Positions 46,448 through 51,344 of a DNA stretch of 63,694 bases are shown one piece after another. The stretch is from positions 1 to 63,694 of the IMG/VR virus record IMGVR_UViG_3300030101_003495; one strand, given 5' to 3'. A program made the translations under genes and the position numbers. Below the pieces are notes generated by a model, which was given only the letters and a program-made list of their open reading frames with translations, was not told the origin of the DNA and searched no databases. This DNA is from a virus. Its lineage: Duplodnaviria > Caudoviricetes. Position 1 is the first letter of the stretch; every line of letters starts with the position of its first letter.

Positions 46448-47292
46448 TCGTAGTTACGTATTGCTTTGAATAATGGGTGACGGTATGAACCTGATGGTGT
46501 GCGTTGGAAGTATGTAAATGTAGCTGTTTTGCCGATATACCACTCAGCTATATCGTACATCTCTTCGAGCATTGATTGTTTGCCCATAACAGGCATACCG
46601 AATTTAACACCGTTGGAATCTACAGCAAGGAACTTACCGATAGTACCGGTACGTTTACCTTGGCCTTCAACCCAGCCAACAATCGTAGCCTCTGTGTCGT
46701 GAAAGTCTTTGAACTTTTGTAGATTATAAGAACGTTTTTGTTCGTAAGGCTTGTTGTAACGTAGTATTGAGCCTTCATAGCCATCATTTAAGTTAAGTTG
46801 ATGGTTGTATTTTGCAGCATCTAAGCTGAGTACAGCTTGAAATGGCACTGATTTAGTATATTTAAGATCAAATAAATCAATGATTTCAGATATATCACAG
46901 CTGCGTTGATAGTATTTATCAGCTGGTATCATAGGGTTGAACATGTCATAACAGTGAAACTGCACGAGAGATTGTGCTTCGCTCATATCTATAAGCGTAG
47001 GTTTTTGCTTACGTACGAGAGATATTATCTTGTTAAAGTTATCTTTAAGCTTATGGTTGTATAGCTCACCATCGAGAATAATATCTGGGTATTTATGAAA
47101 GACATGTTCTAAATCCCTAAGTATATGGTCTATATTGTGAAAAGGTTTGTGGTTACGACTGAAAGCACCGGTTGATGTAATGTAACATCTTACACCGTCA
47201 AGCTTTGGCTGAATATAAGTATCAGACCAGTCGGTTTGTTTTTTGCCTACAGGATGTGCAAGCATGCACTCAAATTGTTTTTTGGTTTTCAT
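46444..47292 (-). CDS. ATP-dependent DNA ligase (minimal)
   Basis: KLDGVR, LDGEL, YD, EG..LR, K.K motifs and RHP.F OB-fold end. Confidence 0.9.
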   Translation of the reverse strand: MKTKKQFECMLAHPVGKKQTDWSDTYIQPKLDGVRCYITSTGAFSRNHKPFHNIDHILRDLEHVFHKYPDIILDGELYNHKLKDNFNKIISLVRKQKPTLIDMSEAQSLVQFHCYDMFNPMIPADKYYQRSCDISEIIDLFDLKYTKSVPFQAVLSLDAAKYNHQLNLNDGYEGSILRYNKPYEQKRSYNLQKFKDFHDTEATIVGWVEGQGKRTGTIGKFLAVDSNGVKFGMPVMGKQSMLEEMYDIAEWYIGKTATFTYFQRTPSGSYRHPLFKAIRNYE

Positions 47293-47531
47293 ATATTATA
47301 TCGGTTTTTAATTGTGGTTATTTTCTTTTGTATTATACTAGCTTTTTCATATTCTTCATCAGCTTCATATCGTGACAATAGGTTATTAAGCCTATCTAGT
47401 TCCATTAGTATAAGATCTGTTTCATCAATAGAATTTGTTTTCATTTCACTAGAATATTCTCTAATAAAAGTTTCAACAACTTCTTTAGCAACTGCTTTAG
47501 CTATTTTATTTATTTCTTTATCGGTTAGCAT
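47289..47531 (-). CDS. Hypothetical protein (UVR-like C-terminus)
   Basis: EEYEKASIIQKKI; directly after a class-1 motif. Confidence 0.65.
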   Translation of the reverse strand: MLTDKEINKIAKAVAKEVVETFIREYSSEMKTNSIDETDLILMELDRLNNLLSRYEADEEYEKASIIQKKITTIKNRYNI

Positions 47532-47571: not shown

Positions 47572-47644
47572 TTGCGTGGGAAGGATTCGAACCTCCGACC
47601 TTTGGGTTATGAGCCCAACGAGCTGGCCACTGCTCTACCACGCT
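47572..47644 (-). tRNA. tRNA-Met(CAT), initiator (fMet) type
   Basis: Cloverleaf; anticodon arm TTGGG-CTCATAA-CCCAA with three consecutive G-C pairs; 1:72 mismatch (A.A); CCA not encoded. Confidence 0.92.
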
Positions 47645-49568: not shown

Positions 49569-49799
49569 ATTTTATATTTTTCTTTTTCTATAGCTTTTCA
49601 GTATCTTCTTTTGATCTACCCATTTCAGCTTCCCACTCTTCATCATCAATGTACATACCTTTTTTATATTTATTTACCATCATACCATTTATCTATTATT
49701 TGCTCATTAGTACTATCATCAATTAAATATATATATTTATTAATTTTAATGAATAGAACATCTTTGCTTTTAATATCTATTTTCATAATTTTAATTTAG

Positions 49800-49901
49800 T
49801 GGACGTGGCAGGAATCGAACCTGCGTTAGTAATCATCGAGCCGTTTTTCGCATCCCGCTAAGGAATTACGCCTTTAATCATACTCTAACCATTTCACGCC
49901 C
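49800..49901 (-). ncRNA. Miniature tmRNA-like RNA (tRNA-like domain only, Ala identity)
   Basis: GGGCGTG/CACGTCC-A acceptor with G3.U70 and A73; A8; stemless D-loop with TGG; T-arm GCAGG-TTCGATT-CCTGC. Confidence 0.75.
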
Positions 49902-50234
49902 TTTTTGATAGTTCAACTTTATTTATAGTGGAGAGAACTAACAACGCCCACATTTTTTATAAATCTTCTTCTGTATAATCTAGCTTACATAAATCATACA
50001 GCCATTTTTTGTAATTTCTGTCTGATTCGAGTATTCTACCTGCTAAGTAAGATTCACGATCTAACCTTTTTTGTTTATCTTTTTTTAGTTTATTCATTTA
50101 CTTAATTATTTTATATATTCGCCTTCTTGCCACTCTCCACATTCTTGGCATGATGAGTCGCATATTGTATATTGGTGGTATACTAATTCTGTACTACCAC
50201 AAAATTTACATTTAGTTTCTTCCATTTAATTATT

Positions 50235-50731: not shown

Positions 50732-50753
50732 AGTAATTATTTTATTTGTTTAT

Positions 50754-50787
50754 TATATTATCTAATACACATCGTATTTAGTTTGTA
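50754..50787 (-). promoter_or_regulatory. Class-1 early promoter copy 4
   Basis: Identical arms; 8-nt spacer. Confidence 0.8.
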
Positions 50788-50838
50788 AAAAGGTGTATAA
50801 ATATTTATTTATAAAAATAGTTTGAATAGTATTGCGCA

Positions 50839-51159
50839 TGACATAATGACATATAAAAGTATTTATAGTGACAATTTGTCATATTATAATAAAAATATAT
50901 AATGTATAGGTCAAAAACCATGCCAAACTAGTTGTCCATGACAAAAAGTCATAACATTGGATGACATGTTGACCAGTAAAAGCCAAAACATTTACGGTAA
51001 AATCTAAAAAACAAAGGCCGGTGGGCCAAAACCAAGTCAATCTGGTAACACGTTGGTAATCAGCTAGTTAGGGTATAATACTTTACTCCTATATATCTAA
51101 CGCAAAAAGTGTGACAATAGGTAATTAGGCTAAGAATAGTAACAGGCAACTGTCACATT
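50839..51159. repeat. Cluster of TGACA/TGTCA repeats in the divergent non-coding region (putative origin or genome end)
   Basis: TGACA at 50839, 50847, 50869, 50939, 50962 and 51112; TGTCA at 50877 and 51151. Confidence 0.6.
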
Positions 51160-51180
51160 ATTACAATTACATGCTTTTAC

Positions 51181-51208
51181 GTAAAAATACCGCGTTTCGT
51201 GTAAGTAT
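51181..51208 (+). promoter_or_regulatory. Class-2 promoter candidate heading the tail-fibre operon
   Basis: GTAAA-N15-GTAAGTAT. Confidence 0.5.
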
Positions 51209-51236
51209 ATATAGTATACACAAACAATAAAAACAC

Positions 51237-51341
51237 ATGGCAACAGATATAAGAGTGGGTACATTAACCCCAACTGCCTTTTACGTAGGTACTCAAGCGG
51301 TAAGCGAGATATATTTAGGCGATAAACTAGTATATTCATAA
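51237..51341 (+). CDS. 34-aa tail-fibre adaptor-like peptide
   Basis: MATDIRVGTLTPTAFYVGTQAVSEIYLGDKLVYS, three repeated beta-hairpin xVG/YLG units. Confidence 0.7.
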   Translation: MATDIRVGTLTPTAFYVGTQAVSEIYLGDKLVYS

Positions 51342-51344
51342 ATA

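What the first reader, a model, noticed from the sequence alone, without database searches (positions are those of the whole stretch)
49797..49950. Miniature tmRNA-like RNA: alanine-acceptor tRNA-like domain with no mRNA-like domain
Seen: minus strand 49901->49800 (102 nt) folds into a 7-bp acceptor GGGCGUG/CACGUCC with G3.U70 and discriminator A, followed by A8, an unpaired AAAUGGUUAGA loop instead of a D-stem, and a perfect T-arm (GCAGG-UUCGAUU-CCUGC) preceded by AAC. The ~60-nt interior holds one hairpin (CGUA..UCCU-UAGC-GGGA-UGCG) and no stop-terminated tag ORF. Established: G3.U70/A73, no D-stem and a short NAC linker define the tmRNA tRNA-like domain that binds SmpB and AlaRS; normal tmRNAs are several hundred nt with a tag ORF. 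Inference: an early RNA that titrates SmpB to block trans-translation, adds Ala without a degradation tag, or acts as an anticodon-less tRNA decoy. A second GGGCGU at 49949-49944 and a UAGUUC/GAACUA hairpin just upstream could give an alternative fold or processing leader.
Basis: partly seen in the sequence, partly recalled or inferred. Interest (0 to 1): 0.87.

Follow-up and report, generated by a model that had tools for sequence, protein, structure and literature searches.

The report
Phage mini-tmRNA lacking a tag
A marine phage carries a 102-base RNA gene that copies only the tRNA-like, alanine-accepting end of the bacterial ribosome-rescue RNA (tmRNA), belongs to a large family in related uncultured phages, and probably interferes with or re-routes the host's ribosome rescue.

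Summary
Minus strand 49901-49800 has a 7-bp acceptor stem with G3.U70 and A73, a stemless GG-containing D-loop and a 5-bp T-arm. A short helix with a 49-nt insert stands where tmRNA has its roughly 310-nt body. Rfam tmRNA matches both ends at 35.1 bits (cut-off 47); the tRNA model scores 21 bits, the mt-tmRNA model finds nothing, and ARAGORN is silent.

It is not a one-off. I found 103 distinct relatives in IMG/VR contigs of Flavobacteriia-type podophages. In a set gathered through a neighbouring ligase gene, 35 of 51 loci carry one 0.4-3.2 kb upstream. Pair 4:69 and three T-stem pairs covary, while 3:70 stays G.U in 35 of 38. One subtype has the D-loop of Bacteroidia tmRNA. No conserved tag ORF exists.

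The kind is already known. Mycobacteriophage DS6A has a TLD-only tmRNA, and a similar molecule is reported to inhibit tmRNA (PMC4131195, PMC11915505). New here are the size of the family, the exchangeable inserts, and its place in arrays of undescribed structured RNAs.

Function is inferred: SmpB/AlaRS competition or tag-less rescue. Expression and charging were not shown.

The parts
49895..49901 (-). Acceptor stem, 5' strand GGGCGUG (RNA nt 1-7); G3 at 49899
   Evidence: In the ligase-anchored set all 7 pairs are paired in 100% of cells. Pair 3:70 is GU 35 / AU 3, and pair 4:69 is CG 22 / GC 9 / AU 7.
49885..49894 (-). Stemless D-loop analogue AAAUGGUUAG (nt 8-17) with conserved GG (G12, G13)
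   Evidence: G12 is invariant; A8, A10, G13, A16 and G17 are each at least 90% conserved in 64 sequences. Aligned to the tmRNA D-loop by Rfam.
49881..49884 (-). Helix H2/P2 stub, 5' strand (nt 18-21, AGUA), pairs with nt 71-74
   Evidence: All 6 modelled pairs of this helix show changes on both sides across the family. 0 of 500 shuffles reach the observed covariation score, and slid controls fall to about a quarter of the covariation score or less.
49832..49880 (-).
   Evidence: The core motif occurs in 2 distinct contexts inside tRNA-like domains and 17 outside them, in other RNA scaffolds. Contigs from RNA-type libraries carry it in other flanks.
49828..49831 (-). Helix H2/P2 stub, 3' strand (nt 71-74, UACU)
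49825..49827 (-). AAC linker before the T-arm (nt 75-77); host tmRNAs have GGAC here
   Evidence: A76 and C77 are each at least 90% conserved. Host comparison.
49808..49824 (-). T-arm GCAGG-UUCGAUU-CCUGC (nt 78-94)
   Evidence: 100% paired. Three of 5 pairs have double changes in the ligase-anchored set. The loop is UUCGAUU in 83 of 103 members.
49801..49807 (-). Acceptor stem, 3' strand CACGUCC (nt 95-101); U70 at 49804
49800..49800 (-). Discriminator A73
   Evidence: A in 100 of 103 distinct members.
49797..49799 (-). 3' trailer CUA (CCA is not encoded)
   Evidence: The trailer is CTA in 92, CAA in 8, CCA in 2 and CTG in 1 of 103 members. The same CTA follows the discriminator of 11 of 12 ordinary tRNA genes of these phages. 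In 27 host-class tmRNA genes C74 is present in all 27 and CCA is encoded in only 3.
49909..49949 (-). Upstream GGGCGU (49949-49944) and 6-bp AU-rich hairpin (49940-35 / 49914-09). Possibly the vestige of a second unit; not a conserved part of the element.
   Evidence: 6 GGGCGT in the window against 3.8 expected; alternative fold, z = -1.30. None of the related loci shows it.
47572..47644 (-). tRNA-Met(CAU), the only ordinary tRNA of the phage, on the same strand with the same CUA trailer
   Evidence: In the closest relative, L085, a TLD unit lies 37 nt upstream of the homologue of ORF 47289-47531, the place the tRNA-Met holds in the window.

Best explanation
The gene encodes a CDS-less tmRNA homologue, that is, a tRNA-like-domain-only 'mini-tmRNA' of a Flavobacteriia podophage.

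Shown here:
- tmRNA-type architecture.
- Homology to Bacteroidia tmRNA tRNA-like domains.
- A large phage family in which G3.U70 and A73 are held fixed while neighbouring pairs covary.
- A tRNA-gene-like 3' trailer and tRNA-gene-like positions in the genome.
- No tag ORF, and no phage-encoded SmpB or CCA-adding enzyme.

Inferred:
- It is transcribed with the leftward early/replication genes.
- It is matured by the host tRNA pathway: RNase P at G1, a cut after A73, then CCA addition.
- It is charged with alanine by host AlaRS through G3.U70/A73.
- It is bound by host SmpB at the D-loop/T-loop elbow.

Because it has no resume codon or ORF, it cannot support tagging. It would therefore compete with the host tmRNA for SmpB, and as Ala-TLD-SmpB-EF-Tu for stalled ribosomes. 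This would damp or re-route trans-translation during infection.

The helix that replaces H2 would point away from the ribosome. That would explain why it tolerates exchangeable inserts of about 25-130 nt.
For: (1) Model fit. Rfam tmRNA scores 35.1 bits across both ends. The tRNA model scores 21 bits on the 3' part only, and the mt-tmRNA model has no hit at the locus.

(2) Family size. The 3' 22-mer occurs in 64 IMG/VR loci, and every one has a GG[GA]CGTG strand 46-127 nt upstream of the T-arm. The 5' 17-mer finds 36 loci, 31 of them shared.

(3) Ligase-anchored set, not chosen by RNA sequence. There are 42 hits at E <= 1e-3 (41 outside the window) in 40 of 68 loci. Of the 51 loci with at least 3.3 kb of upstream flank, 35 carry a unit on the ligase strand.

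(4) Covariation. The acceptor stem and T-stem are 100% paired. Pair 4:69 is CG 22 / GC 9 / AU 7. Three T-stem pairs and all six H2 pairs show double changes. 0 of 500 shuffles reach the observed covariation score. Pair 3:70 stays GU in 35 of 38 and is never GC in this set.

(5) Whole family. Across 103 distinct members, 3:70 is GU in 96 and position 73 is A in 100.

(6) Host likeness. The GGGGGUG subtype has the D-loop ACCUGGUUUUGAC and GGAAG before the T-arm. The 27 host-class tmRNAs have GAC(N)GGUUUUGAC...GGAC.

(7) tRNA-like gene context. The CUA trailer is shared with 11 of 12 of these phages' tRNA genes. Host-class ssrA genes mostly lack encoded CCA (3 of 27 have it).

(8) Precedent. Phage DS6A has an 83-nt TLD-only unit that scores 43.2 bits with Rfam tmRNA and 39.4 bits with my family model. 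Per PMC4131195 and PMC11915505 (passages read), a similar molecule strongly inhibits tmRNA in E. coli whether or not it can be charged, perhaps by titrating SmpB. Per PMC3968760 (passages read), a TLD-only RNA with SmpB and EF-Tu was crystallised on a stalled ribosome.

(9) Dependence on the host. The phage has no SmpB and no CCA-adding enzyme.
Against: - No evidence of transcription, ends, CCA addition, charging or SmpB binding. Only contigs could be laid, and they say nothing on these points.
- The main subtype, including the window's copy, departs from the host D-loop (UGGUUAG against GGUUUUGAC) and has UAAC where hosts have GGAC. SmpB affinity could therefore be reduced or changed.
- The element is dispensable: 16 of 51 related loci with enough flank have no unit at E <= 1e-3. 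Five cultured relatives have no hit above 26.6 bits.
- The insert is a recurrent module found mostly outside tRNA-like domains (17 contexts against 2). A second anticodon-less tRNA-like chassis with a different acceptor stem exists in related phages. Both point to a scaffold role.
- Sixty-four of the 103 members were gathered with an exact 3' pattern, which inflates apparent conservation on that side.
- The fold energy is not significant.
Confidence: 0.5

Rival explanations
1. Tag-less rescuer rather than inhibitor. Ala-mini-tmRNA with SmpB enters stalled ribosomes and takes over the nascent chain with one added alanine. The peptidyl-RNA is then released by a stop-independent factor or by drop-off and hydrolysis. 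Ribosomes are freed without marking phage proteins for proteolysis.
For: The structural evidence is the same as for the best explanation. Strict retention of G3.U70 and A73 suggests charging matters, whereas published inhibition by a TLD-only molecule did not need charging (PMC4131195, passage). CDS-less mitochondrial and plastid tmRNAs persist together with SmpB and are thought to help with incomplete mRNAs (PMC11915505, passage).
Against: No release factor partner was identified in the phage. No data on charging. The mt-tmRNA model does not recognise this RNA. No experiment I read shows turnover of a peptidyl-TLD.
Confidence: 0.18
2. tRNA-like chassis. The business end is the insert, and the tRNA-like domain only provides processing by RNase P and the 3' pathway, stability and perhaps localisation. 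It would be one of several scaffolds that display exchangeable RNA modules in phage non-coding arrays.
For: Interiors range from about 25 to 130 nt and are unrelated between members, while the ends are nearly invariant. The window's insert motif occurs 17 times outside and 2 times inside tRNA-like domains. In most related loci the unit ends a 300-700 nt array of other conserved scaffolds with nested variable hairpins. A second anticodon-less tRNA-like chassis occurs in 29 loci. The units stand 2-57 nt before varied small ORFs or tRNAs.
Against: A mere scaffold would not need G3.U70. A Watson-Crick pair would be more stable, yet G.U is kept in 96 of 103 members and across three acceptor subtypes. 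The shortest members (40-70 nt) carry almost no insert. The window has none of the other scaffolds.
Confidence: 0.2
3. Processing punctuation or 5' leader. The tRNA-like fold is cut out only to create the 5' end of the downstream mRNA, or to separate transcripts.
For: In the window the next ORF starts 13 nt after the unit. In most related loci an ATG or a tRNA follows within 60 nt. The trailer is shared with tRNA genes.
Against: The downstream ORFs belong to many unrelated small-protein families. Ordinary tRNAs or simpler hairpins would do the job. This role does not explain G3.U70, A73 or the tmRNA-type D-loop.
Confidence: 0.07
4. Non-functional relic: a decayed tRNA or tmRNA, or an attP-type fragment of host ssrA picked up by an integrating phage.
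For: Phages often integrate into ssrA and carry its 3' end (general knowledge; also stated in PMC9004378, passage). The Rfam score is below the cut-off.
Against: Both halves of the domain are present and pair. There is no integrase in the genome. The 3' 22-mer occurs in only 6 contigs, all from metagenome-assembled genomes, among 185,579 species genomes, and never at a host ssrA. Compensatory changes show purifying selection on the fold.
Confidence: 0.03

Closest known systems
TLD-only tmRNA of Mycobacterium phage DS6A (listed as 'TLD only' in Hudson et al. 2014, PMC4131195; called a CDS-less form in PMC11915505)
   Same: It is phage-borne and short: JN698994.1 28478-28560, 83 nt. It has a 7-bp acceptor stem with G3.U70, A73, a stemless D-loop, a T-arm with loop UUCGAUU, one short interior hairpin and no ORF. 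The trailer is CUA. Its Rfam tmRNA score is below the cut-off (43.2 bits against 35.1 here). My family model recognises it at 39.4 bits.
   Different: It comes from another host phylum and has about 70% G+C. It sits in a phage that has a tyrosine integrase. It is reported as a single case. The family here has at least 103 distinct members, three acceptor subtypes, exchangeable inserts, tandem copies and membership in larger non-coding arrays.
Bacterial one-piece tmRNA (Rfam RF00023), Bacteroidia type
   Same: The acceptor stem with G3.U70 and A73, the stemless D-loop with GG, the AC just before the T-arm, the T-arm, and C74 without a full encoded CCA.
   Different: The body is missing: no pseudoknots, resume codon or tag ORF. 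The interior is 45 nt where the model has 310. The score is below the gathering cut-off. The acceptor sequence and the main-type D-loop differ from all 27 host-class genes examined.
CDS-less organellar tmRNAs (mt-tmRNA RF02544; about 65-bp plastid forms of Mallomonadaceae, PMC11915505 passage)
   Same: Reduced to the tRNA-like domain, with no tag reading frame.
   Different: The mt-tmRNA model finds nothing at the locus. Those forms are organellar and co-occur with imported SmpB, whereas this one is viral.
tRNA (RF00005), in particular tRNA-Ala
   Same: The acceptor and T-arm geometry, the alanine identity pair, the gene position among phage tRNA genes, and the shared trailer.
   Different: There is no D-stem and no anticodon arm. 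The tRNA model scores 21 bits on the 3' part only, and ARAGORN makes no call. Only the shortest relatives (70 nt) creep over the tRNA cut-off, at 32 bits.

Membership tests
tmRNA (RF00023) | Acceptor stem with G3.U70 and discriminator A73 (alanine identity) | tested here: met
   GU in 96 of 103 and A73 in 100 of 103 family members. All 27 host-class tmRNAs have the same.
tmRNA (RF00023) | [quoted passage not shown] | tested here: met
tmRNA (RF00023) | mRNA-like domain: resume codon and tag ORF ending at a stop in helix 5 | tested here: not met
   The interior is 45-60 nt and unrelated between members. Only 1 of 103 has an Ala-Ala-stop frame.
tmRNA (RF00023) | Pseudoknot ring (PK1-PK4) | tested here: not met
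   The Rfam alignment skips about 310 model positions. The folds show a single branched hairpin.
tmRNA (RF00023) | Score at or above Rfam's gathering cut-off (47 bits) | tested here: not met
   35.1 bits. Relatives score 36.9-37.9 bits.
tmRNA (RF00023) | 3'-CCA end, alanylation by AlaRS, and binding of SmpB and EF-Tu | not testable with these tools
   CCA is not encoded (the trailer is CUA), but 24 of 27 host-class ssrA genes also lack it. Laid contigs cannot show RNA ends.
TLD-only / CDS-less tmRNA (phage DS6A type) | Only the tRNA-like domain plus a short connecting hairpin, of tmRNA rather than tRNA descent, encoded by a phage | tested here: met
   The tmRNA model beats the tRNA model. One subtype has the host-type D-loop. 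The DS6A unit has the same layout and is hit by family model R1 at 39.4 bits.
TLD-only / CDS-less tmRNA (phage DS6A type) | Inhibits endogenous tmRNA when expressed (reported for a similar molecule, Mao et al. 2009, as cited in PMC4131195 and PMC11915505) | not testable with these tools
   This needs an experiment. I did not see the primary paper.
mt-tmRNA (RF02544) | Match to the family model | tested here: not met
   No hit at the locus at E <= 10. The best hit in the genome lies elsewhere, at 16.5 bits.
tRNA (RF00005) | Cloverleaf with D-arm and anticodon arm; score at or above 29 bits | tested here: not met
   21 bits, covering 49800-49855 only. No ARAGORN call.
ssrA attP fragment of an integrating phage | Identity to the 3' end of a host ssrA, with an integrase nearby | tested here: not met
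   No integrase. The 22-mer is absent from host ssrA genes and occurs in only 6 contigs from metagenome-assembled genomes. The 5' half is present too.

The most novel reading that the evidence does not exclude
The mini-tmRNA is one chassis of a combinatorial RNA system in marine Flavobacteriia phages. In this reading, a pool of exchangeable structured RNA modules is grafted onto at least two anticodon-less tRNA-like chassis and onto several other scaffolds. One chassis is the alanine-type tmRNA domain; the second has a different acceptor stem. The units are strung into 300-700 nt arrays and cut apart by the tRNA-processing machinery. The alanyl-chassis would then carry its module to SmpB or to stalled ribosomes, so the phage could reprogramme ribosome rescue or sequester host factors with interchangeable RNA 'warheads'.
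Probability: 0.15. Interest if true: 0.85.

Novelty: new variant of a known kind. Interest (0 to 1): 0.6.

Why it matters
Until now, TLD-only tmRNAs in phages rested, in the sources I read, on a single mycobacteriophage example. Here a family of more than a hundred distinct copies shows purifying selection on the alanine identity pair. That argues that tampering with trans-translation, or tag-less rescue, is a recurrent phage strategy in a major group of marine bacteria.

It also gives a natural series of minimal SmpB/AlaRS ligands, 40-177 nt long, for testing what a tRNA-like domain alone does on stalled ribosomes.

Standard tools miss these genes. ARAGORN makes no call and Rfam scores fall below the cut-off, so phage annotation under-counts them.

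The surrounding arrays of undescribed modular RNAs may be the larger discovery.

Tried and rejected
- ARAGORN finds only tRNA-Met in the window.
- blastn of the 301-nt region and of a 69-nt relative at E <= 1 against 50,697 deposited phage records found no unit. The only hits were T-arm-length matches to tRNAs.
- Family model R1 on five cultured relatives (MW202828.1, Flavobacterium phage elemoA_7-9A, Cellulophaga phages phi13:2 and phi38:1, Tenacibaculum phage Gundel_1) gave nothing above 26.6 bits.
- The mt-tmRNA model finds nothing at the locus.
- The attP/ssrA-fragment reading was rejected.
- The tag-ORF reading was rejected.
- The sigma-70 promoter scan is uninformative: 18 sites against 14.4 expected, and this host group uses other promoters, which is recalled rather than tested.
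- Fold energies are not significant.
- Public runs: 20 rows from 13 studies of marine or aquatic metagenomes hold the stretch or part of it. I laid 4 RNA-labelled runs, all held only as contigs. One contig carries the whole unit from a relative; the others carry only the insert module in other flanks. This gives no verdict on transcription, ends, strand or CCA.
- Rfam at E <= 1 on two related arrays named nothing beyond the tmRNA-like unit and T-arm fragments.
- None of nine other array scaffolds or modules is present in the window at up to about 17% substitutions.
- Supplementary tables of the tmRNA database paper (PMC11915505) could not be read. I cannot exclude that some of these sequences are listed there, although its viral input was RefSeq viruses (passage).
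- Literature searches for a described family of this kind found only the DS6A mentions.
Full report
**What is there**

- a 7-bp acceptor stem with G3.U70;
- discriminator A;
- a GG-containing loop with no possible D-stem;
- an AAC linker;
- a perfect 5-bp T-arm with a 7-nt loop;
- an interior hairpin.

The unit fills a 170-nt gap between two small minus-strand ORFs. It is 48% G+C in a 27% G+C stretch.

**Which known model fits**

- Rfam's tmRNA model aligns to both ends at 35.1 bits, E 1.3e-12 for the region. It skips about 310 model positions for 45 nt of sequence. The cut-off is 47 bits.
- The tRNA model gives 21 bits on the 3' part only.
- The mt-tmRNA model finds nothing at the locus.
- ARAGORN makes no call.

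So the unit is a tmRNA-type tRNA-like domain (TLD) without the body. Fold energy alone is unremarkable (z = -1.33).

**Host and setting**

The terminase is most like those of an uncultured podovirus (64%) and of Flavobacterium elemo, Cellulophaga and Tenacibaculum phages (31-45%). The likely host is therefore a member of the Flavobacteriia.

The unit lies on the strand of the replication and nucleotide-metabolism genes: ligase, ERF, a sigma-like protein, primase-helicase, RNR and thymidylate synthase. It is about 0.9 kb from the divergent non-coding region at 50732-51344. 'Early' is thus plausible but inferred.

The phage has no SmpB, no integrase and no CCA-adding enzyme.

**A family, not a singleton**

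- The 3' 22-mer occurs in 64 IMG/VR loci. In every one a GG[GA]CGTG strand lies 46-127 nt upstream of the T-arm.
- The 5' 17-mer finds 36 loci, 31 of them the same as above.
- Interiors differ completely in length and sequence, yet the first six pairs of the connecting helix all show double changes. 0 of 500 shuffles reach the observed covariation score, and slid controls fall to about a quarter of it.

To avoid choosing members by the RNA's own sequence, I collected 68 loci through the neighbouring ATP-dependent ligase. I searched them with a covariance model, R1.
- There were 42 hits at E <= 1e-3, 41 of them outside the window, in 40 loci.
- Of the 51 loci with at least 3.3 kb of upstream flank, 35 carry a unit 0.36-3.2 kb upstream on the ligase strand. 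The other 16 have none at that threshold.

In this set of 38 distinct sequences:
- the acceptor stem and T-stem are paired in 100% of cells;
- pair 4:69 is CG 22 / GC 9 / AU 7;
- three T-stem pairs change on both sides;
- pair 3:70 remains GU in 35 and AU in 3, and is never GC.

Over all 103 distinct members:
- 3:70 is GU in 96, AU in 4, GC in 2 and other in 1;
- position 73 is A in 100;
- lengths run from 40 to 177 nt, with a median of 88.

A wobble pair kept in place while its neighbours are exchanged is the signature expected of selection for the AlaRS identity element. That G3.U70 is the identity element is established knowledge; charging itself was not tested.

**Descent from tmRNA**

Three acceptor subtypes exist: GGGCGUG, GGGAGUG and GGGGGUG. 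The last has the D-loop ACCUGGUUUUGAC and GGAAG before the T-arm. The 27 tmRNA genes sampled from the class of a Bacteroidetes genome read GGGG..GAC(N)GGUUUUGAC ... UUUGGAC-T-arm.

The window's subtype is more diverged, with UGGUUAG and UAAC at these places. This is a caveat for SmpB binding.

No host genome carries the phage sequence. The 22-mer occurs in only 6 contigs of metagenome-assembled genomes among 185,579 species. The two such genomes I searched (the two Bacteroidetes ones) each have a separate full-length tmRNA of 142-174 bits. The ssrA-attP reading is therefore rejected.

**Processing context**

After A73 the family has CUA in 92 of 103 members, CAA in 8, CCA in 2 and CUG in 1. 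The same CUA follows the discriminator of 11 of 12 ordinary tRNA genes in these phages, including the window's tRNA-Met.

Host-class ssrA genes keep C74 in all 27 but encode CCA in only 3. The missing CCA therefore argues for the usual tRNA 3' pathway, not against charging.

Units sit where tRNA genes sit. They are next to tRNA-Met or tRNA-Gln in several loci. In the closest relative, L085 (ligase 94% identical), a unit lies 37 nt upstream of the homologue of ORF 47289-47531, the place the window's tRNA-Met holds. Nine loci have two hits, two of them weak.

**No tag**

Only 1 of 103 members has a GCN-started frame ending Ala-Ala-stop. The interiors are structured hairpins, not conserved coding sequence.

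**What is already known**

I read passages, not whole papers.
- Hudson et al. 2014 (PMC4131195) list 'Mycobacterium phage DS6A (TLD only)'. They state that a similar molecule, chargeable or not, strongly inhibits tmRNA, perhaps by titrating SmpB. They cite Mao et al. 2009, which I did not see.
- The 2025 tmRNA database paper (PMC11915505) repeats this and adds CDS-less plastid and mitochondrial forms. Its viral input was RefSeq viruses.
- The review PMC3968760 gives the defining TLD features. It describes a crystal structure of alanyl-TLD-SmpB-EF-Tu on a stalled ribosome. It also describes H2 as a mimic of a long variable arm that points out of the ribosome.
- PMC3895274 mentions peptidyl transfer to a TLD-only RNA.

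I located the DS6A unit at JN698994.1 28478-28560, where the record has no annotation. It scores 43.2 bits with Rfam tmRNA and 39.4 bits with R1. It has the same layout and also a CUA trailer.

Six literature searches found no description of the Flavobacteriia-phage family. No deposited phage record matched at blastn level. Five cultured relatives lack a clear copy.

**The insert and the neighbourhood**

The window's interior motif (UUAAAGGCG...GGCUCGAUG, 49877-49834) recurs in 17 distinct contexts outside TLDs and in 2 inside them.

In most related loci the unit is the last member of a 300-700 nt non-coding array that follows a small conserved ORF. The array is made of several conserved scaffolds, each with a nested variable hairpin. 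One scaffold is a second anticodon-less tRNA-like chassis, with 23 distinct copies in 29 loci.

Rfam names none of these scaffolds. The window has none of them. These facts keep a scaffold reading alive and suggest a larger modular RNA system.

**Mechanism**

Most likely (about 0.5): a TLD-only mini-tmRNA is matured like a tRNA, charged with alanine and bound by host SmpB. Lacking a resume codon, it competes with host tmRNA and damps or re-routes trans-translation.

Rivals:
- tag-less rescue (0.18);
- a chassis for exchangeable modules (0.2);
- transcript punctuation (0.07);
- a relic (0.03).

Expression, ends, charging and binding are not shown. Public RNA-labelled runs were available only as contigs and give no verdict.

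**Upstream GGGCGU and hairpin**

Both are real. None of the related loci shows them, and the alternative fold is not significant. They may be the vestige of a second unit, since tandem units occur elsewhere.

**Verdict**

The identity is supported, and the function is plausible with a published precedent but untested. This is a new and much larger variant of a known kind, set in an undescribed RNA neighbourhood.

Noticed in passing
Related loci, e.g. L012:8300-9060, L009:10268-10765, L026:4400-4864, L014:8750-9183: The mini-tmRNA is usually the last unit of a 300-700 nt non-coding array. The array starts just after a small conserved ORF and consists of several conserved RNA scaffolds, each with a nested variable hairpin. 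The same variable modules recur in different scaffolds. No Rfam family matches them.
   Followed up: partly
e.g. L028:4030-4117, L012:8760-8860; 29 loci in all: A second anticodon-less tRNA-like chassis. Its layout is N-AACUAG-GU(C/A)(A/U)GG-[variable]-CUACCGACGGGUAUGAGG-UUCGAAU-CCUCA-CUAGUUA-C-AAA. There are 23 distinct copies. The acceptor stem is quite different, position 1:72 is often mismatched, and the discriminator is C. It is not present in the window.
   Followed up: partly
window 49834-49877 (-), and 17 other contexts in loci such as L018:921-964 and L042:1143-1186: The motif UUAAAGGCG...GGCUCGAUG is flanked by GA/GA and has a conserved G.G opposition. It carries its own variable sub-insert and may be a kink-turn-like or protein-binding module. 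It occurs mostly outside tRNA-like domains. Contigs from RNA-labelled runs carry it at higher word depth than the tRNA-like part, but depth in contigs is not a measure of expression.
   Followed up: partly
window 47572-47644 (-): The phage's only ordinary tRNA, tRNA-Met(CAU), has an A1.A72 mismatch at the top of the acceptor stem and the same CUA trailer as the mini-tmRNA. Whether it is an initiator, an elongator or an Ile2-type tRNA was not examined.
   Followed up: no
L085:3-89 (closest relative, ligase 94% identical): A TLD unit with a different insert lies 37 nt upstream of the homologue of window ORF 47289-47531, where the window has tRNA-Met. tRNA and mini-tmRNA genes therefore seem to exchange places. 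The contig ends there, so a second unit cannot be checked.
   Followed up: partly
L074 = G001:C16:53388-53650; also L024, L048, L059, L046, L060, L065: Two mini-tmRNA units in one phage, either in tandem 67 nt apart or 0.4-1.7 kb apart. One tandem partner has an encoded CCA and a G7.U66 pair.
   Followed up: partly
KC821614.1 (Cellulophaga phage phi38:1) 26806-26888 (-): The 3' half looks like the 3' end of a Bacteroidia tmRNA (GGAC, T-arm, acceptor 3' strand), but no pairing 5' strand is present. It may be an ssrA 3' fragment.
   Followed up: no
NC_062747.1 (Tenacibaculum phage Gundel_1) 73061-73129 (+): A 69-nt tRNA-like sequence with a perfect acceptor stem (G3-C70) and a T-arm but no evident anticodon arm. 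R1 scores it at 26.6 bits.
   Followed up: no
JN698994.1 28478-28560 (+): The published TLD-only tmRNA of phage DS6A is not annotated in the deposited record. It lies between gp33 and gp34 and is also followed by CUA.
   Followed up: yes
e.g. L063 and L065, about 200-300 nt upstream of the unit (sequence printed): One array scaffold is about 32 nt long, starts GUUGGAAGG and ends GACUAC. From memory only, its ends recall the termini of type VI-B CRISPR repeats of Bacteroidota. If so, it could be a repeat mimic. This was not tested.
   Followed up: no
window 50732-51344: A 613-nt stretch with only spurious ORFs lies between the leftward early/replication block and the rightward structural block. 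It is presumably the divergent promoter region.
   Followed up: no
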